Shown one piece after another: positions 30,740 to 38,973 of a DNA stretch of 42,104 nucleotides. The translations under genes were made by a program, and so were the position numbers. Below the pieces are notes generated by a model that was not told the origin of the DNA, ran no database searches, and saw only the letters and a program-made list of their open reading frames with translations. Origin of the DNA: a virus (lineage: Duplodnaviria; Caudoviricetes); IMG/VR virus record IMGVR_UViG_3300027828_000051, positions 1-42,104 of that record. One strand, given 5' to 3'. Numbering within the stretch: the first letter of the stretch is position 1; each line of letters opens with the position of its first letter.

Positions 30740-30979
30740 ATGAAATGTGAGATTAAGATTGTTAGAGACAAATCAAGTAGCTATGACTCTGAAAAAACAG
30801 TAATAGTGATTACTGAAGCAACAGAAACTGAGAAGTTCCTTATCAGTAATCAGATGACAGGAAGTTACAGAAGTCCTGAAGAAGTGAAAGGCATGATGGT
30901 TAGTGACTTACACATGTGCCTCGAAGAACATTTGTCTAAGATTGAAGAAGTTTTAGGAGATAGAAATGATAATAGTTGA
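30740..30979 (+). CDS. Hypothetical protein
   Basis: AGGAG SD; in operon. Confidence 0.65.
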   Translation: MKCEIKIVRDKSSSYDSEKTVIVITEATETEKFLISNQMTGSYRSPEEVKGMMVSDLHMCLEEHLSKIEEVLGDRNDNS

Positions 30980-31505
30980 AGGTGCTGATGGTAGTGGAAA
31001 AACTACCCTAGTTAATTTGATTAAAGCTGCATACCCAGAGTTTAAGTCCATACATTCTCCAGGACCCCTGAGTCTTGAAGTATTGAAAGAAAGAATGTTT
31101 TGGAACGATGAGTTAATAAAATTGGACTTTGTCATAACTGACAGGTTTACAATGTTCTCTGAGTTCGTGTATGGTGAAATCTTAAGAGGTCATTCGTTAG
31201 TTAACAACGGGGACATAGCTAAGTGGACTACAAAGTTCAAACAGAATGAGAAGAATCTTATTATTTTTTGTGACAGGGAGTTTGTACCTATTCACAAGAA
31301 ACACGGTGCTATCCATATGACCGAAGATGAAAAGATGAAATTGGAAGTTGAAGTCGATTCTAAACTTGAAGAAATCAGGGAAGAGTACAGACTTATATTC
31401 AACTGGTTAAAACAAGCTTACCAGAATACAAAGATTGTAACTGTTAAGGAGCCTGAAGACGTGACGTTGGCTATTGAAACAATTAGAACATTGTATATAG
31501 ATTAG
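30966..31505 (+). CDS. dNMP (thymidylate-kinase-like) P-loop kinase
   Basis: IIVEGADGSGKTT and DRF...SEFVYG motifs. Confidence 0.85.
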   Translation: MIIVEGADGSGKTTLVNLIKAAYPEFKSIHSPGPLSLEVLKERMFWNDELIKLDFVITDRFTMFSEFVYGEILRGHSLVNNGDIAKWTTKFKQNEKNLIIFCDREFVPIHKKHGAIHMTEDEKMKLEVEVDSKLEEIREEYRLIFNWLKQAYQNTKIVTVKEPEDVTLAIETIRTLYID

Positions 31506-31514
31506 GAGAAGTAA

Positions 31515-32126
31515 ATGAATATTAACGATGTAGAAAAAACAGACAAACCAGAAAACAAGTTAAAAGCGATATTTGACAAGCAAAAAGAATTGGCTATCAA
31601 GTATCATCCCATTGAAGAGAAATCAGGACTGCTTCAGACAACTGACTTTCCTGTAGACTTGAACGATCCCGCAGGACAAGCGAGACTTAAGGATTTAGCT
31701 TGGAGAACTATCGAGGAACTCGGTGAAGCTTTTGAGTGTATAAATGACGGAGATGAACACTTCGAGGAAGAACTCATTGATGGTCTACATTTCTTTGTTG
31801 AACTGTTGCTATCAGCTGGTATTGACCACAAGCCCTTTACAACACTCGAAAGCTTACATGAAGCTGTGATGGCTCCGTTCTCATTCAGTGACGCAGCTTG
31901 GATGTTTACAAGTGAACTGGGACTGTGTATGAATTGTCTGAAGAACAAACCCTGGAAACAAACTCATATGGAAACTGATGTGGTCTATCTCAGAACTAAA
32001 CTGATCGGTGCTTTTATACATTTTGTTGCTATGCTGAAGACAGCCGGTTTATCTGCTGACGATATTTATAGTTATTACTTTAAAAAGAATAAAGTAAATC
32101 AATTCCGACAGAGGAGCAATTACTAA
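31515..32126 (+). CDS. All-alpha dimeric dUTPase/dCTPase (T4 gp56-like)
   Basis: EELGE, EELIDGLHF, KPWK and YFKKNKVNQFRQ motifs. Confidence 0.85.
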   Translation: MNINDVEKTDKPENKLKAIFDKQKELAIKYHPIEEKSGLLQTTDFPVDLNDPAGQARLKDLAWRTIEELGEAFECINDGDEHFEEELIDGLHFFVELLLSAGIDHKPFTTLESLHEAVMAPFSFSDAAWMFTSELGLCMNCLKNKPWKQTHMETDVVYLRTKLIGAFIHFVAMLKTAGLSADDIYSYYFKKNKVNQFRQRSNY

Positions 32127-33286
32127 TGAAAGTTCTGGGAGTATATGGTGGGATAGGTTCTATGCTTGTCGCCGCTAGAAATGCTGGCTGTCAAGTTGTA
32201 GGTAATATTGAGCCACGAGACTTTGAAGATGGACAGACGTTCATACACAATTTTCCAGGTACTCAGTTCTCAAAAGGTAAGTTTTTACCAGTAGAACCAG
32301 ATCTTATTGTTGGTCATCCTTCCTGTGGAAGTTATTCTGCGATTAACTGGCGAAGTGACAAAGTAAAACGTGATGAAGTCGAGAACTTTGTAACTGCAGT
32401 TAGAATATATATGCCGAGTTCATTTATCATGGACAATTTACCAAAGATGTTTATTGACTATGATGCTGACTATTGGTACAATGAGTTATCAGAGTTCTAT
32501 GATATTTCTCCGGTGTTTGTAAACAACAGGAACTATGGAAATGCTCAGGTGAGGAAAAGAGTTTATTTAATTGGTACGCTGAGAAAGTATAACTATGTTC
32601 CATTGCCAGGTGAGAATAGAAACTTGAAGACAACCACGAAAGATGTCATAGGACACTTGCTAGGATCGGAGGGTAAGATAGAAAATCATAATGATGTTGA
32701 CTATGAAGACAATTGGTCTTCTATGACAAATGTTATGGCTCATAATACAAAAACTAAGTATAAAGATGCTTTACAACATGTTGCTAATTGGCCTGAAGGA
32801 AAGTCCTTTAAATACTTTAAAAGTGACGGTTCTGAAGGTACAAGAATTGGTTTGACTAAGGCAAGGTGGGATGGACATTGTCCAACGTTAGCTAGTACAG
32901 CTAGACAGATTCATCCAGCAAGATGTACTCCGTTTACTATCAAAGAACAATTATTGCTTATGGGTTATCCTGAGGACTTTGTGATCAAAGGAATGCCAGT
33001 TAGTACTGATGGTACTTGGAAGATACGTGGTAAAGAATACCATCAAACCAATAAGGGTGTTTGTGTTCAGTCGATACAGTTCTTTATTGATCAGGTGAAG
33101 AACTTCATTGAATCAGACGGTCATTATGACATGGACAAGGTGACTGGTATTGAAGAATCATTAGCACCTGAAGTAAACACATTTAAATATATGTATTGCC
33201 AAAAAGAGGGTACTACTATAAGATCTATGAAATGTTCAATCTGTAAGATGAGAACAATTTGTAAGAAAAAGGAGATGAGAAAATGA
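32126..33286 (+). CDS. Divergent C5-cytosine DNA methyltransferase-like protein
   Basis: Motif I YGGIG, IV GHPSCGSYS, VI MDNL, VIII QVRKRVYLIG, IX/X IHP...LMGYPEDF...KGV; C-terminal Cys cluster. Confidence 0.8.
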   Translation: MKVLGVYGGIGSMLVAARNAGCQVVGNIEPRDFEDGQTFIHNFPGTQFSKGKFLPVEPDLIVGHPSCGSYSAINWRSDKVKRDEVENFVTAVRIYMPSSFIMDNLPKMFIDYDADYWYNELSEFYDISPVFVNNRNYGNAQVRKRVYLIGTLRKYNYVPLPGENRNLKTTTKDVIGHLLGSEGKIENHNDVDYEDNWSSMTNVMAHNTKTKYKDALQHVANWPEGKSFKYFKSDGSEGTRIGLTKARWDGHCPTLASTARQIHPARCTPFTIKEQLLLMGYPEDFVIKGMPVSTDGTWKIRGKEYHQTNKGVCVQSIQFFIDQVKNFIESDGHYDMDKVTGIEESLAPEVNTFKYMYCQKEGTTIRSMKCSICKMRTICKKKEMRK

Positions 33287-33987
33287 GAATCTATAAAGAC
33301 AGTTTTGAAGCAATCCGAGAAGTCGAAAGAGACTTGGCTGAGATGGGAATCACCTATCAATCTTCAACATGTCAGGATCAGGACGTATCTAAGGACGAAG
33401 GGTTTATGACTAAAGAGTTATCACCTTATGCTTACTCAGTAACCAATCCCACTGACAAGATGACTGAGATGCTTAAATACAAAAAAGAAGAAAAGTATGC
33501 CAACTGGGTTCTAGCTGAGTGTCATGAAAGATACACTGGTGTTTGTACTGAAACTAATCCTGGAGATGCTTGGAAATTACTACCTGAGCTGTGGGAACAA
33601 TTTAGACACAATGGATTCTTCAGTTACACCTATGTCGAAAGATTACAGGAACAATTGAAGTATGTTAAGGCTGAGTTGAAAAGGAACCCTGCTTCTAGAC
33701 AAGTTACGATGACTATGTACGACAGACACCAGGACATGATGAACTGGGGAGGAAAGGCTCGAGTACCATGCTCATTGAGTTACAACTTCCTAATAAGAAA
33801 TGGGAAACTTACATTGACATATACTCAGCGAAGCTGTGACTTTTACAACTTCTTCCAAGCGGATGTTTTCTTCTCAATGTTCATGCAGAATGAGATAGCA
33901 AAAGAACTGGGAGTTGAGTGTGGAAAGTTTACTCATTTCATAATCTCCCTGCATGCTTTCAAAAAAGATATGAAGGACGTATTTTAA
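33283..33987 (+). CDS. Thymidylate-synthase-fold enzyme, predicted dCMP C5-(hydroxy)methylase
   Basis: PASRQ, catalytic VPC, QRSCDFYNFFQAD (Asp at the E. coli ThyA N177 position), SLH. Confidence 0.8.
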   Translation: MRIYKDSFEAIREVERDLAEMGITYQSSTCQDQDVSKDEGFMTKELSPYAYSVTNPTDKMTEMLKYKKEEKYANWVLAECHERYTGVCTETNPGDAWKLLPELWEQFRHNGFFSYTYVERLQEQLKYVKAELKRNPASRQVTMTMYDRHQDMMNWGGKARVPCSLSYNFLIRNGKLTLTYTQRSCDFYNFFQADVFFSMFMQNEIAKELGVECGKFTHFIISLHAFKKDMKDVF

Positions 33988-34404
33988 ATGGATATGAGCA
34001 AAGCAAGAAATGAATGTAGATACTACGATTCTTGTTCTGCTCCTTTCTGTCCGCTTGACACAGTAACAAATGGTAATGCTGTATGGTTTCCTGATGAAGA
34101 AATCTGTATAGTAAATGAGCCTCCTTACTGGGTCGAGCGACAAGTAAAGTTGAGCAAGAGAACAAAGGACAGAGACACATGTTACACTTTTGGAATGGTG
34201 AAGTGGAGATGTATGATTAAGAAAAATATAAATGGAATTGAATCACCGGACACGTTACCAAAACAGAAGAAAGCAGAACGTGTGTGGATGGTAGCCCACA
34301 AACTTAAAAAGCCGTTATCCATGAAAGAAAGGGAGGAACGCTGTAAGCGTCTAGAAAATGCCCGGAGAATCAGGCTTGATATTTTGAATCGATCATCAAA
34401 ATAG
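33988..34404 (+). CDS. Cys-rich basic hypothetical protein
   Basis: CRYYDSCSAPFCPLD...WFPDEEIC. Confidence 0.7.
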   Translation: MDMSKARNECRYYDSCSAPFCPLDTVTNGNAVWFPDEEICIVNEPPYWVERQVKLSKRTKDRDTCYTFGMVKWRCMIKKNINGIESPDTLPKQKKAERVWMVAHKLKKPLSMKEREERCKRLENARRIRLDILNRSSK

Positions 34405-34565
34405 ATCATATATGAGCCTGTGTGATTTGATCAAATCATATATATGAGCCTGTATGTTTCATGTATATGAATAATTAGTGATGTTCATATATCATAACAC
34501 ATGATATAATGAAATATGTCATGAGCCTGTGTAATATTGATTTAAAATATGTGAGGCTGTATGAC
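34404..34565. repeat. Four-motif non-coding element, copy B
   Basis: TGASSCTGTRT at 34413, 34445, 34522 and 34552; central block shared with copy A. Confidence 0.8.
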
Positions 34566-34594
34566 AACGAAAAAGAGATAGAATTGGAGATTTT

Positions 34595-36502
34595 ATGGAA
34601 CAAAAATACCCTGACTTGTCAGATGCAAAGATCATATCTTTTGATATTGAAACATTTGATCCACAGTTAAAAGAAAAAGGAACGGGAGTCTACAGGAATG
34701 ATGGCTATATTCTAGGTGTCTCAATTTGTACAGATACAGGATTTTCTGAGTACTACAACCTAGGTCACTTCTACAAGAAAGACACTAGGATGAATGAGCA
34801 ACAAGTCATCGAGAAGTTTGCTATGAATGTAAAGACTTACAACTATAGTCACTATGGAATTGATCTTCAGGAAAGAAGAAAGAACATAAACTACCTGAAG
34901 AAAGTTATGGCCAGTGATGCTGACAAGCTTGGTGCTAATATCAAGTATGATATGGACTGGTTAGAAAATTGGTTAGGAATAAAGATAAAGGGAAAGCTTC
35001 ACGATGTTCAGATAGCTGAGCCACTAATTGATGAAAACAGAATGAGATATAATCTTGATTCTCTTGGACATAAATACCTTGATAGAGGAAAGATGAAGAC
35101 TGAGATTGATGCATTCTGTGAAAGGAATAAGCTTCGTGGTGATTCTCGAAAATGGTTGTATCTAATGCCTTACAAAATGGTTAGAAAATACGCCTTAGAA
35201 GACGTTCATGTTCCTCTTGAAGTATTCATGAAACAAAGAGTAATCTTGAATGAAGAAGGGCTCAATGAAATCTATGATTATGAGATGAGACTCTCAAGGT
35301 TATTGTTAAAGATGAGAAAGACTGGAGTTAGGATCAACGAACCCCAGCTTGCTGATATCAAAAAGAAAACAGTAAAGAAGATTGATGAGTCACAGGAAGA
35401 GTTAAACAATATCACTGGAAGAAGAATACCAGTTAACTTTAATTCAGGTCCTGAGCTTGGATTCATTCTTGATAAGCTTGGACTTGAGTACCCCATTACT
35501 GAAAAGACCAGAAAGCCGTCAATAACTAAACCTTGGCTGAGAAACCACATGGACGATCATCATGTCTTTAAAGTAATAAATGATTGTAGAAAGTATTACA
35601 AATTAAATAGTACTTTCCTTGAGTCTCAGATAGGTGGAACTGTTGTTAATGGTAGAATACATTGTTCTTTTAACCAATTGAAAAGTGATGATTATGGAAC
35701 AGTATCAGGAAGGTTCTCAAGCTCGAATCCAAACTTACAGTTTATCCCAGCAAATGATCCAGATATCGGAAAGAGCATAAGGTCATTGTTTATACCTGAA
35801 GAAGGTTATGACTGGATTAAGGCTGACTACTCACAAATTGAAGTAAGAATCATATCTCACTATGCGATGGGTCAAGGTTCAAATGATATACGTCAAGCGT
35901 TCATTGATAGCTTAGATACTGACTTCCACCAGTGGTGTGCTGATGCTTCAGGTCTTTCAACTTCAATGGGAGAAGGTGGTAGAAAATATGCTAAGAGAAT
36001 TAACTTTGGTATATTCTATGGCATGGGAATTGATTTACTATGTCAACAGCTGGGCATGTCAAAAGATGAGGGTAAAGCCTTCATGAAAATGTACCATGCT
36101 AAACTACCTTTCATTAAGAATACTATTCATAAAGTTTCAGCAAAAGCATTATCCCGTGGTTATGTAAAAACATTACTGGGAAGACATAGACGCTTTCCTG
36201 ACGGTGAGAAAACGTACAAGGCCTTTAATTCAATCGTACAGGGCACTGCAGCGGACATTATGAAAAAAGCGATGGTTGATACCTATGAGGCAGGAATCTA
36301 CGATGTGCTCGCCCCACACATCACTGTACATGATGAGATGGACGTTTCAATGCCTCGAACTAAAGAAGGTATCGAAGCTACTCGAGAAATGAAACAAATC
36401 ATGGAAACATGTTTACCGTTGAAAGTTCCTACAGTCGCTGATTTTGAAATTGGAAAAGACTGGGGAGCTCTGAAAGACTTTGAAGGAAATTATTATGGAT
36501 AA
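34595..36502 (+). CDS. polA: Family A DNA polymerase with 3'-5' exonuclease
   Basis: Exonuclease DIET, NIKYD and YALED; TVSGRFSS..PNLQ; motif A DYSQIE, B RKYAKRINFGIFYG, C VHDE. Confidence 0.96.
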   Translation: MEQKYPDLSDAKIISFDIETFDPQLKEKGTGVYRNDGYILGVSICTDTGFSEYYNLGHFYKKDTRMNEQQVIEKFAMNVKTYNYSHYGIDLQERRKNINYLKKVMASDADKLGANIKYDMDWLENWLGIKIKGKLHDVQIAEPLIDENRMRYNLDSLGHKYLDRGKMKTEIDAFCERNKLRGDSRKWLYLMPYKMVRKYALEDVHVPLEVFMKQRVILNEEGLNEIYDYEMRLSRLLLKMRKTGVRINEPQLADIKKKTVKKIDESQEELNNITGRRIPVNFNSGPELGFILDKLGLEYPITEKTRKPSITKPWLRNHMDDHHVFKVINDCRKYYKLNSTFLESQIGGTVVNGRIHCSFNQLKSDDYGTVSGRFSSSNPNLQFIPANDPDIGKSIRSLFIPEEGYDWIKADYSQIEVRIISHYAMGQGSNDIRQAFIDSLDTDFHQWCADASGLSTSMGEGGRKYAKRINFGIFYGMGIDLLCQQLGMSKDEGKAFMKMYHAKLPFIKNTIHKVSAKALSRGYVKTLLGRHRRFPDGEKTYKAFNSIVQGTAADIMKKAMVDTYEAGIYDVLAPHITVHDEMDVSMPRTKEGIEATREMKQIMETCLPLKVPTVADFEIGKDWGALKDFEGNYYG

Positions 36503-36788
36503 ACTTGTTGTAACTAGACATCAGGGATTAGTAAAACATCTTAGAGAAATTGGTCTAATTGAAGAGTGTACTAAAGTAGTGACATACGCTAAGCCTGAAG
36601 ATGTTATTGGAAAACATGTGCTTGGTGTAATCCCTTATTGGTTAGCTTGTAAGGCAGAAAAATATACTGAGATTCAGCTGAGATTACCATCTGATCTTAG
36701 AAACAAAGAGCTTAGTTATGATACAATTAAGTTCTATGCAAATGACCCGAAAACATACATTGTTAAGGAGGTAGATTTCAATGGATAG
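36495..36788 (+). CDS. Csx16 (Cas_VVA1548)-like protein, candidate ring nuclease
   Basis: VVTRH, HVLGVIPYWLA, L.LP.DLRNKELS and terminal YIV match the Csx16 pattern as recalled; no search run. Confidence 0.65.
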   Translation: MDKLVVTRHQGLVKHLREIGLIEECTKVVTYAKPEDVIGKHVLGVIPYWLACKAEKYTEIQLRLPSDLRNKELSYDTIKFYANDPKTYIVKEVDFNG

Positions 36789-38323: not shown

Positions 38324-38509
38324 CTACTTTTTAAATGCTCCGATTCCAAAGCATAACATTGTCATTCCAGAAAGAATGTAATATTTTCCTTCATCCACAA
38401 CGGGTAAAAACGTACTAACTAATACTGCAATTAACAGTATAAAGCCAACTACAGTATTTTCATTTATGTCGTTCTTTGTTGAAAATAAATCTGTTAAAAA
38501 CTTTTTCAT
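38324..38509 (-). CDS. Holin (two TM segments)
   Basis: 61 aa with two hydrophobic helices and a basic tail; next to the putative endolysin. Confidence 0.7.
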   Translation of the reverse strand: MKKFLTDLFSTKNDINENTVVGFILLIAVLVSTFLPVVDEGKYYILSGMTMLCFGIGAFKK

Positions 38510-38973
38510 CTTTTAATTCTCCTAAATACTCTTCTAGATTCTATAAAGGCTACGCCTCTTTTGTATGCTTGAACAGTCACTGAGTTTCCCAGTGAGTCGT
38601 AAGTAACATTATCATTCTCATCCGCTACTACAAAGTGATGTTTCCCCGTTTCTGGGTTATACAGATATAATAACTGTAACTCATCTTCCTGAAGCTTTCT
38701 CAGAGCATGAAGTTTATGAGTTCTGTTCTCAATTACTAATCTATAAGGAAGGCCTGAGTCCTGACAAAGCCGATCCCAGTTCATGATCTTTGTATTAGGT
38801 AATATTGTTCCAGCCTTAATCCAGTTATCGCACTCCATAATAAAGTGTTCTCTTTTAAAGGTATTCGTTCCATACATTACTGCAAGATACTGGATATCAA
38901 ACAGAGCACATCCATACTCTTCGAACGGAATCTCAGACATATTATTTAGTAGAATATCATCTTGTCTTATCAT
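38506..38973 (-). CDS. Papain-like (C39/DUF261-like) cysteine peptidase, putative endolysin
   Basis: YGC, HFVV and YDSLG give a Cys-His-Asp layout; lysis cassette position. Confidence 0.6.
   Translation of the reverse strand: MIRQDDILLNNMSEIPFEEYGCALFDIQYLAVMYGTNTFKREHFIMECDNWIKAGTILPNTKIMNWDRLCQDSGLPYRLVIENRTHKLHALRKLQEDELQLLYLYNPETGKHHFVVADENDNVTYDSLGNSVTVQAYKRGVAFIESRRVFRRIKR

What the first reader, a model, noticed from the sequence alone, without database searches (positions are those of the whole stretch)
32126..33286. Atypical C5-methyltransferase embedded in the dCMP-modification operon
The catalytic motifs deviate: motif I is YGGIG instead of FxGxG, motif IV has PSC instead of PC directly, and motif VI is DNL instead of the near-invariant ENV. 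The gene overlaps both neighbours. If C5 is already substituted in the dNTP pool, a standard C5-methyltransferase has no substrate. Inference: it may be the hypermodifying enzyme, for example acting on 5hmC (C5-MTases can activate hmC via the catalytic Cys), or it may act on another base or on host DNA. This is the best candidate here for undescribed DNA chemistry.
Basis: inference. Interest (0 to 1): 0.8.

Follow-up and report, generated by a model that had tools for sequence, protein, structure and literature searches.

The report
Rewired methyltransferase for phage cytosine hypermodification
This phage gene has the fold and catalytic cysteine of a DNA cytosine methyltransferase but a rebuilt cofactor pocket, almost always sits with a cytosine-type thymidylate-synthase relative, and likely adds an unknown, probably acidic, side chain to already modified cytosines in the phage DNA instead of a methyl group.

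Summary
Observation confirmed. The 386-aa ORF belongs to an uncharacterised phage family (about 110 clusters at 50% identity) with the C5-methyltransferase fold. It keeps the base-activating residues (Cys67, Asp103, Arg143, Arg145), but the cofactor pocket is rebuilt. That TS has Arg143, so it is not T4-, Xp12- or RB69-like and 5hmC is not shown. No cmoA was found (0 of 36). This circular 42-kb genome carries the minimal cassette (kinase, dCTPase-like enzyme, this gene, TS, PolA) without the AsnB ligase. New here: the gene never shares a locus with a second TS-fold protein that keeps Cys/Arg/Asp and fills the same slot (49 versus 67, 0 both, of 160 loci). Best reading: a post-replicative, Cys-dependent substitution on C5-modified cytosine with an anionic donor. 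The scan noted AsnB-bearing and two-TS versions before on other DNA. No biochemistry found in print.

The parts
30966..31505 (+). dNMP (thymidylate-type) kinase
   Evidence: PHROG 761 E 5.5e-17; same place in L001, L002, L255
31515..32126 (+). dimeric dUTPase_2 family pyrophosphatase, inferred dCTPase/dUTPase
   Evidence: Pfam PF08761 E 3.6e-12; dCTP activity is inference from the T4 gp56 analogy
32126..33286 (+). C5-methyltransferase-fold enzyme with rebuilt cofactor pocket (the finding)
32144..32161 (+). motif I YGGIGS (HhaI Phe18 to Tyr, Gly23 to Ser)
32204..32218 (+). motif II NIEPR with Glu29 and invariant Arg31
   Evidence: Arg 63/63
32312..32338 (+). motif IV GHPSCGSYS: His64, catalytic Cys67; intein insertion site in relatives
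32432..32440 (+). motif VI DNL (Asp103 for HhaI Glu119)
32546..32560 (+). motif VIII QVRKR, both cytosine-binding Arg intact
   Evidence: Q 63/63, R 62/63, R 63/63
33053..33055 (+). motif X Lys310 at HhaI Asn304 / CmoX Arg350 position
   Evidence: alignment to HaeIII and HhaI, PMC12783734
33197..33262 (+). C-terminal four-Cys cluster (C358, C370, C373, C379), predicted Zn site
   Evidence: conserved in about 70 of 111; outside the range matched by solved structures; metal binding is inference
33283..33987 (+). thymidylate-synthase relative, dCMP type: Gln21, Arg143, Cys146, Ser147, Asp169, Phe173, Asp177 (E. coli numbering)
33988..34404 (+). Cys-rich 138-aa ORF of no known family, kept in two close relatives only
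   Evidence: no Pfam or PHROG hit; present in L001 and L255, absent in L002
34595..36502 (+). family A DNA polymerase
   Evidence: Pfam PF00476 E 5.8e-71

Best explanation
The protein has the C5-methyltransferase fold with a rebuilt cofactor pocket and likely works after replication as a transferase that replaces the leaving group of an already C5-modified cytosine with an anionic small molecule, rather than as a methyltransferase. Step 1 (inferred from gene content and Asp177): the TS relative converts dCMP to a C5-substituted dCMP, most simply 5-hydroxymethyl; the pyrophosphatase removes dCTP, the kinase and PolA put the new base into DNA. Step 2 (residues shown, reaction inferred): the enzyme flips the base, Cys67 adds to C6, Asp103/Arg143/Arg145 hold and protonate the ring, and the C5 substituent leaves to give an exocyclic methylene. 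Step 3 (inferred): a carboxylate- or phosphate-bearing nucleophile, for example an amino acid or an adenosyl-linked carrier, held by Lys310, His64, Arg31 and Ser12, adds to it and the Cys is released. The product would be a cytosine with an acidic C5 side chain; relatives with an AsnB-type ligase would amidate it, this phage would leave it as the acid. Purpose (inferred): protection from host nucleases. Odds: about 0.75 that it is a non-methylating step of this TS pathway, about 0.45 for this particular substitution chemistry.
For: Fold: AlphaFold2 pLDDT 94, pTM 0.93; Z 27.9, rmsd 2.8, 276 aligned to M.HaeIII; Z 25.6, rmsd 3.2, 280 aligned to CmoX. Base-activating residues kept, cofactor-pocket residues changed; the motif I Phe and motif III Asp lost here are adenine contacts in CmoX (PMC12783734). 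Lys310 aligns with HhaI Asn304, the carboxylate-binding site of CmoX R350 and M.MpeI N374K. Inteins in 10 of 28 long homologues scanned; five read GHPE then intein, so the insertion is at the catalytic Cys. Linkage to the TS clade 49 of 54 vs 0 of 24. Exchange with TS2, an unrelated protein whose invariant residues are Tyr/Cys/Arg/Asp and which aligns to the TS active site (hhalign probability 75): 49 loci this enzyme only, 67 TS2 only, 0 both, of 160; both usually lie between dUTPase and TS (23 of 25; 42 of 54); 11 swaps on the TS tree. The two folds share only Cys attack on C6 of cytosine. AsnB in 29 of 49 loci with this enzyme and 0 of 67 with TS2 points to a carboxylate in this branch. M.MpeI forms covalent complexes with 5hmC DNA and the authors infer Cys-dependent loss of the hydroxymethyl group (PMC11347137 passages). 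Two family-type genes side by side in 4 loci (L023 and L107 are one contig) and the kept TL dipeptide (T254, L255) fit a sequence-selective DNA enzyme. This genome avoids TTATAA (0 vs 11.3 expected), ATTAAT (1 vs 13.1), AAATTT (1 vs 8.6) and GAATTC (0 vs 6.3), while C/G-containing palindromes are at 0.95 of expectation.
Against: No activity data. The TS product is unknown: Arg143 matches neither the hydroxymethylase nor the methylase rule, and His/Phe173 may alter folate binding. AsnB occurs with the TS but without this enzyme in 4 loci, one a complete 82-kb record, so a carboxylate can apparently arise without it. The exclusivity has only 7 independent pairs on well-supported branches (4.6 same way, 0 opposite, p 0.06). 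TS2's fold rests on a moderate profile match; it had no Pfam or PDB sequence hit. A sister subfamily (ENL, Lys at motif X) does occur in 3 of 44 TS2 records, far from the TS. The palindrome pattern does not generalise: pooled over 19 AsnB-free loci, C/G-containing palindromes are at 0.81 and AT-only ones at 0.89. Glu29 and the Gly-x-Gly turn are kept, so SAM or a SAM derivative may still bind. In MetaGPA, DNA_methylase was not enriched in modified contigs (6 vs 846), though that family is mostly ordinary enzymes.
Confidence: 0.45

Rival explanations
1. It is a CmoX-like carboxymethyltransferase that uses host-made carboxy-SAM, either on unmodified C at some sites or on the hydroxyl of the TS product; AsnB then makes the amide.
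For: Lys/Arg at the Cx-SAM site; AsnB-type ligase nearby, like CmoY; ribose-binding Glu29 kept; CmoX worked in E. coli on host CmoA alone.
Against: No cmoA in 0 of 36 records, 12 of them at least 90% complete, whereas the CmoX survey found 4257 CmoA with 5615 CmoX. SPPC motif absent; Phe and Asp adenine contacts of CmoX lost. Does not explain the 49 of 54 linkage to the TS or the exchange with TS2. CmoX is no closer in structure than ordinary enzymes (rank 13).
Confidence: 0.2
2. The TS itself makes the carboxylate-bearing base: Arg143 binds an amino acid that traps the exocyclic methylene at the nucleotide level. This enzyme is a tailoring step whose Lys310 grips the substrate's own carboxylate (exchange, SAM-dependent capping or decarboxylation).
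For: Arg143 in 161 of 162 TS sequences, at the position that selects the incoming nucleophile; AsnB next to the TS without this enzyme in 4 loci; no DHFR hit among 63 window ORFs scanned, unlike Xp12, so the TS step is probably not reductive.
Against: Large phages carry the same TS with neither partner, some beside glycosyltransferases or a carbamoyltransferase, enzymes that need a hydroxyl handle (PMC8670742 section 12); AsnB never occurs with TS2 (0 of 67), which is odd if the TS always makes the acid; simple O- or N-methylation would not need an invariant Cys.
Confidence: 0.2
3. It is an ordinary SAM-dependent m5C methyltransferase with drifted motifs, acting on residual C or on host DNA.
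For: Whole fold, Cys, both motif VIII Arg and Glu29 are kept; 16 of 111 homologues keep Glu in motif VI.
Against: Asn304 is 40/40 in canonical enzymes and absent from the three commonest family residues; His64 and Arg31 are fixed gains; CmoX with Arg there did not accept SAM; ordinary enzymes show no link to this TS.
Confidence: 0.08
4. It attacks unmodified host DNA: without a usable methyl donor the Cys adduct would trap or deaminate cytosines in the host genome while the modified phage DNA is immune.
For: Kept Cys with a changed cofactor pocket; cofactor-free C5-methyltransferases can deaminate C (recalled, no call); T4-type C replacement goes with enzymes that destroy C-DNA (recalled).
Against: Does not explain fixed cationic residues at the C5 side, the co-variation with AsnB (Trp30 31/34, Glu66 29/34 in AsnB loci; Pro/Ser30 16/25 without), or fusions to an amino-methyltransferase domain (9 of 28 long homologues).
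Confidence: 0.07

Closest known systems
CmoX of Synechococcus phage S-B43 (PDB 8YF3; PMC12783734)
   Same: C5-methyltransferase fold (Z 25.6); basic residue at HhaI Asn304; phage DNA modifier; asparagine-synthetase-like ligase often nearby.
   Different: CmoX has SPPC, Glu in the cytosine pocket, an otherwise normal adenosyl pocket, cmoA beside it, and acts on plain C in GC. This family has GHPxC, Asp, His64, Arg31, no cmoA, a C-terminal Cys cluster, and is tied to a dCMP-type TS.
M.HaeIII / M.HhaI family (Pfam PF00145)
   Same: Fold (Z 27.9 and 26.0), catalytic Cys, motif VIII Q-x-R-x-R, motif IX RE-x-x-R-x-Q-G pattern, TL dipeptide.
   Different: Motif I Phe, motif III Asp, motif IV Gly and Pro, motif VI Glu and motif X Asn are replaced.
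T4 pathway: gp42 dCMP hydroxymethylase, gp56 dCTPase, gp1 kinase, glucosyltransferases
   Same: Asp177 TS relative with kinase and pyrophosphatase before replication, a second enzyme after.
   Different: TS has Arg143 in place of Asp/Glu (rule from PMC13326640); no glycosyltransferase hit in the window.
Xp12 dCMP methylase pathway (5mC replacement; bioRxiv 10.1101/2024.12.05.627091)
   Same: Asp177 TS; a dCMP-deaminase-family gene follows the TS in many relatives.
   Different: Xp12 TS is full length with Asn143 and Gly173 and has DHFR two genes away; the window has neither DHFR nor deaminase hits.
RB69 / DLP3 dCMP hydroxylase (5-hydroxycytosine; PMC13326640)
   Same: Short Asp177 TS relative. 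The best PDB sequence hits (9IQC, 9IQU, E 4e-12) carry the Asn169 mark of this class; that they are the hydroxylase is my reading, the entries say only thymidylate synthase.
   Different: Diagnostic D169N is absent (Asp169 in 161 of 162).
Thymidine hypermodification (5-hydroxymethyl-U kinase plus amino acid:DNA transferase; PMC8989533, PMC11472151, seen as search listings only)
   Same: Proposed logic: replace the hydroxymethyl leaving group in DNA by an amino acid and tailor it.
   Different: Different base and folds; here activation would come from Cys attack on C6, not from phosphorylation.

Membership tests
C5-cytosine DNA methyltransferase (PF00145) | Class I Rossmann-like fold with motifs I-X in order | tested here: met
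C5-cytosine DNA methyltransferase (PF00145) | Catalytic Cys in motif IV and Q-x-R-x-R in motif VIII | tested here: met
   Cys67, Gln141, Arg143, Arg145
C5-cytosine DNA methyltransferase (PF00145) | FxGxG, PC, ENV and GN(A/S)V consensus residues | tested here: not met
   YGGIG, SC, DNL, NKGV; canonical set F 40/40, P 39/40, E 40/40, N 40/40
C5-cytosine DNA methyltransferase (PF00145) | SAM-dependent methyl transfer to C5 | not testable with these tools
   needs an assay
CmoX carboxymethyltransferase | Basic residue at HhaI Asn304 (R350) | tested here: met
   Lys310; K 49, R 8 of 63
CmoX carboxymethyltransferase | SPPC motif used to define the family | tested here: not met
   HPSC here; His at the first position in 56 of 63
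CmoX carboxymethyltransferase | cmoA usually in the same genome | tested here: not met
   0 of 36 records with TIGR00740; control rang in E. coli over the cut-off
CmoX carboxymethyltransferase | Cx-SAM use on C in DNA | not testable with these tools
   needs an assay
dCMP-specific TS relative (neighbour gene) | Asp at E. coli position 177, Cys146, Arg166 | tested here: met
   rule from PMC8670742 section 11
T4-type dCMP hydroxymethylase (neighbour gene) | Asp/Glu at position 143 | tested here: not met
   Arg in 161 of 162; rule from PMC13326640
RB69-type dCMP hydroxylase (neighbour gene) | Asn at position 169 | tested here: not met
   Asp in 161 of 162
Xp12-type dCMP methylase (neighbour gene) | Full-length TS with Gly173 and DHFR beside it, as in Xp12 | tested here: not met
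   His/Phe173 in 161 of 162; Xp12 read; no DHFR hit
Genome-wide cytosine replacement | Modified C in virion DNA | tested here: inconclusive
   Restriction-site pattern suggestive in the window, not in pooled relatives

The most novel reading that the evidence does not exclude
A C5-methyltransferase scaffold has given up SAM and become a DNA transferase that joins an anionic metabolite to C5-modified cytosine through its own Cys adduct, and an unrelated TS-fold protein has converged on the same step; together they define a widespread class of hypermodified cytosines, present also in cultured Gordonia, Microbacterium, Streptomyces, Brevundimonas and Serratia phages (TS2 form), that nobody has characterised.
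Probability: 0.3. Interest if true: 0.9.

Novelty: new variant of a known kind. Interest (0 to 1): 0.72.

Why it matters
Known cytosine hypermodifications in phages use glycosyl-, carbamoyl- or carboxymethyl-transferases. This family would add a new post-replicative reaction run by the best-studied DNA-modifying fold, and likely a new base. The window gives the smallest version (four genes plus polymerase), which can be rebuilt in laboratory E. coli. The swap with TS2 makes the question testable now, because phages with the same TS and TS2 are in culture. An enzyme that couples small molecules to 5hmC-type bases would also be a labelling and sequencing tool. The TS clade itself is common (about 570 confirmed hits in one scan) and its product is unknown.

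Tried and rejected
Cultured phage with this enzyme: tblastn of P0001, P0041, P0107 and an L051 member against 50,697 phage records gave only weak hits to canonical enzymes or to the sister ENL subfamily. Prokaryote genomes: 69 pattern hits, none confirmed, using only the narrow alignment A1. CpG or other motif depletion as a clue to the target sequence: CG 0.54 in the window, but CG/GC patterns differ in L001 and L002; no conclusion. AT-only palindrome avoidance as a general mark of the cassette: not seen in pooled loci; ATTAAT alone is low in all four close relatives. MetaGPA supplements: the first part of file 3 held enrichment scores without sequences and the file is cut, so no contig could be matched; file 2 gave Pfam counts only. 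The first structure model from 11 sequences was poor (pLDDT 68) and was replaced. TS2 had no Pfam hit (6 of 6) and no PDB sequence hit; the Atlas gave only a lead (nearest cluster 10% Thymidylat_synt). Sequencing runs: no RNA holder listed; two DNA runs that may be the source of this DNA. A complex prediction of this enzyme with the TS was not run, so binding is open. Literature: ten searches found no paper on this family, the Arg143 TS or TS2; the library lacks most subscription journals, and Iyer et al. 2013 (10.1093/nar/gkt573), which may mention such clusters, is not held. bioRxiv supplements are closed, so I could not check whether any TS tested in 10.1101/2024.12.05.627091 belongs to this clade. 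Rejected: pseudogene or artefact (intact, conserved, purifying selection); simple filing as CmoX or as an ordinary methyltransferase (defining features not met).
Full report
Setting. The window is a whole phage record of 42,104 bases with a 127-base terminal repeat (CheckV estimate 77%). Tail, capsid and terminase genes lie on the minus strand, replication genes on the plus strand. The finding sits in the run kinase (30966-31505), dUTPase_2 (31515-32126), this ORF, thymidylate-synthase relative (TS, 33283-33987), a 138-aa ORF and PolA. The order kinase, dUTPase, enzyme, TS, PolA is the same in relatives at 73%, 70% and 41% identity. Among 63 window ORFs scanned with Pfam there was no glycosyltransferase, carbamoyltransferase, DHFR, deaminase or second methyltransferase; whole-record searches found no AsnB, no CmoA and no TS2.

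Observation. The ORF, the three motif deviations and both overlaps are as described. The gene is intact and under purifying selection (pN 0.21, pS saturated against L001).

Family. A profile search of 1.84 billion representatives gave 110 proteins at E up to 1e-30, at least one of them a canonical enzyme. In 111 aligned homologues Cys67 is in 109, motif VI has Asp in 94 and Glu in 16, and position 310 has Lys in 83 and Arg in 15. I compared 63 intein-free members with 40 canonical enzymes (34 from control loci, some near copies, plus 6 proteins). Kept in both: Cys67, Ser71, Gln141, Arg143, Arg145 and an acid at 29. Changed: motif I Phe to Thr/Tyr/Ile; Gly to Ser12 (57/63); Arg31 (63/63, Asp in 27/40 canonical); motif III Asp lost; Gly to His64 (56/63); Pro before Cys variable; Glu to Asp103 (57/63); Asn to Lys/Arg310 (57/63). 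The register of Lys310 on HhaI Asn304 is seen in the alignments to HaeIII and HhaI. The CmoX paper (PMC12783734, parts 1-3 of 8 read) shows Arg350 at that site binding the carboxylate of carboxy-SAM, names the Phe and Asp adenine contacts that this family lacks, and cites M.MpeI N374K. The model from 63 sequences has pLDDT 94 and matches HaeIII (Z 27.9, rmsd 2.8, 276 residues), HhaI (Z 26.0) and CmoX (Z 25.6) over residues 1-333; the C-terminal Cys cluster lies outside the matches. Of 28 long homologues, 10 carry inteins and 9 are fused to an N6_N4_Mtase domain; five show the intein starting right after GHPE, at the catalytic Cys.

Linkage to the TS. A scan of viral contigs gave 53 loci. With L001, L002 and the window, 54 whole records could be searched; L044 and L057 were not held and show no TS in their 17-kb loci. 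The TS clade was found at E below 1e-40 in 49 of 54; the 5 misses are fragments of 5-24 kb. The profile was built from 24 of these TS genes, which inflates their scores but not their presence. Of 27 control loci with canonical C5-methyltransferases, 24 were searchable: 0 had the clade, 4 had weaker TS hits. Across 162 distinct TS sequences the marks are Gln21 (161), Arg143 (161), Cys146 (161), Ser/Thr147 (161), Asp169 (161), His/Phe173 (161) and Asp177 (161). Asp177 means dCMP (PMC8670742 section 11). Position 143 is hydrophobic in methylases and acidic in hydroxymethylases, and Asn169 marks hydroxylases (PMC13326640, abstract and passages); Xp12's methylase has Asn143, Gly173 and a DHFR gene. 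This TS fits none of them, so its product is open.

The enzyme is exchangeable. Searching from the TS side (best 80 of 114 and best 80 of 568 hits) shows the cassette is far wider than this enzyme. Where the enzyme is missing in small phages, a second protein (TS2) usually takes its place. TS2 has invariant Tyr, Cys, Arg and Asp at about 19% mean column identity, and these align with TS Cys146, Arg166 and Asp177 (hhalign probability 75, E 2.5e-5). Among 160 distinct TS loci: enzyme only 49, TS2 only 67, both 0, neither 44; three of the 44 proved to hold TS2 missed by my ORF caller, and most of the rest are one clade of large phages or cut loci. In the 133 loci found from the TS side the split is 24, 65, 0, 44 (Fisher p 1e-8, not corrected for kinship). 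In whole records TS2 was absent from 36 of 36 enzyme records. The reverse search hit 3 of 44 TS2 records; all three are a sister subfamily with ENL and motif X Lys, tens of kb from the TS. On a tree of 147 TS proteins (13 left out: long or short-flanked rows) the two labels need 11 swaps; 7 independent pairs on strong branches go the expected way 4.6 times and never the other way, p 0.06. Both genes usually lie between dUTPase and TS (23 of 25 and 42 of 54 loci with a dUTPase). Cultured phages carry the TS+TS2 form: 85 records matched one TS2, mostly Gordonia, also Mycobacterium, Streptomyces and Microbacterium phages; Clostridium phage CPD4 has TS2 before its TS, and Polewnik and Serbin have an unnamed gene of the same size in that slot. 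No cultured phage with the window's enzyme was found.

Further partners. An AsnB-type amidotransferase is in 25 of 36 enzyme records and in 33 of 160 loci: 29 with the enzyme, 0 with TS2, 4 with neither, one of the four a complete 82-kb record. An NPPY amino-methyltransferase is in 15 loci, 14 of them with AsnB. Enzymes from AsnB loci have Trp30 (31/34) and Glu66 (29/34); those without mostly Pro/Ser30 and Ser/Lys66, like the window; lineage may explain part of this. CmoA is absent from 36 of 36. Large phages with the TS alone sometimes have glycosyltransferases or a carbamoyltransferase nearby, which hints at a hydroxyl handle but may serve other purposes.

Genome composition. The window's strongest avoided 6-base palindromes are TTATAA, ATTAAT, AAATTT, GAATTC and TAATTA; C/G-containing palindromes are at 0.95 of expectation against 0.74 for AT-only ones. 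That is what protected cytosines would give, but pooled relatives do not show it (0.81 vs 0.89), so it is weak support.

Mechanism. Shown: fold, residues, gene order, linkage, exclusivity. Inferred: everything chemical. The only chemistry that a C5-methyltransferase fold and a TS fold share is thiol addition to C6 of cytosine (established knowledge). On a base already substituted at C5 this can expel the substituent; M.MpeI forms covalent complexes with 5hmC DNA and is inferred to lose formaldehyde (PMC11347137 passages), and enzyme-directed coupling of thiols to 5hmC has been reported (recalled; one search found no held paper). With new cationic residues facing C5 and a ligase for acids as the usual partner, I favour capture of an anionic nucleophile to give an acidic side chain (0.45). 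Rivals: host Cx-SAM carboxymethyl transfer (0.2), a TS that makes the acid itself with this enzyme as tailoring step (0.2), ordinary methylation (0.08), attack on host DNA (0.07).

Comparison and novelty. It works like the second step of T4-type hypermodification and resembles CmoX at one site, but fails the CmoX marks (SPPC, cmoA) and the consensus of true methyltransferases. Ten literature searches found no account of the family (listed under Tried and rejected). Other papers seen: bioRxiv 10.1101/2024.12.05.627091 (abstract, passages, section 20; supplements closed), PMC7824862 (passages, nothing on this family), PMC8670742 (passages, sections 11 and 12, parts of supplements 2 and 3). Earlier notes of this scan describe the AsnB-bearing cassette with the Lys-type enzyme and, separately, the two-TS cassette; I had found Lys310, AsnB and TS2 before reading them. 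In the lines shown to me none reports the AsnB-free minimal form or that the two cassettes exchange the same slot. Verdict: real, uncharacterised, a new variant of phage cytosine hypermodification; interest 0.72.

Noticed in passing
L003:9208-9957, L137:9011-9748 and about 70 other loci: TS2: an orphan protein with invariant Cys/Arg/Asp next to the Arg143 TS, with homologues in 85 cultured phage records (Gordonia, Mycobacterium, Streptomyces, Microbacterium); no Pfam or PDB hit. These phages probably carry an undescribed modified cytosine.
   Followed up: partly
L242:4682-5677, L248:1492-2583, L249:1501-2520; P0012-P0014: Sister subfamily with ENL, invariant motif II Arg and mostly Lys at motif X, no Cys cluster, found far from the TS in phages that have TS plus TS2.
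   Followed up: partly
P0105, P0107, P0113, P0114, P0118, P0124: Third subfamily with GHPPC, DNL and Arg/Lys at motif X; genomic context not examined.
   Followed up: no
L051-L055: AT-rich phages with an ESK version of motif VI, QPSC and motif X Lys, directly downstream of the TS, no AsnB.
   Followed up: no
window 36480-36788: Small Cas_VVA1548 family ORF (E 4.6e-13) right after PolA, kept in L001 and L255; role unknown.
   Followed up: no
window 38506-38973: DUF261 family ORF; I recall this family from Borrelia, which would hint at a spirochaete-like host.
   Followed up: no
window 34405-34594: Non-coding gap before PolA with several copies of an ATGAGCCTGT-like word; possible regulatory site or origin.
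   Followed up: no
whole window: Strong avoidance of TTATAA, ATTAAT, AAATTT and GAATTC, and of CGCG (1 vs 7.4) and CCAGG (32 vs 62); suggests the host's restriction specificities.
   Followed up: partly
L121:4911-10347: Locus with two TS-like genes, a possible glycosyltransferase and two divergent methyltransferase-like genes in one run.
   Followed up: no
L163, L164, L126, L103, L092: TS with AsnB (and mostly an NPPY methyltransferase) but neither the Lys-type enzyme nor TS2: a third form of the cassette.
   Followed up: partly
L170-L241, clade of large phages (records up to 434 kb): The same Arg143 TS standing alone; 14 to 16 whole records searched had neither partner; some have glycosyltransferases or a carbamoyltransferase (L194:7051-8724) nearby.
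   Followed up: partly
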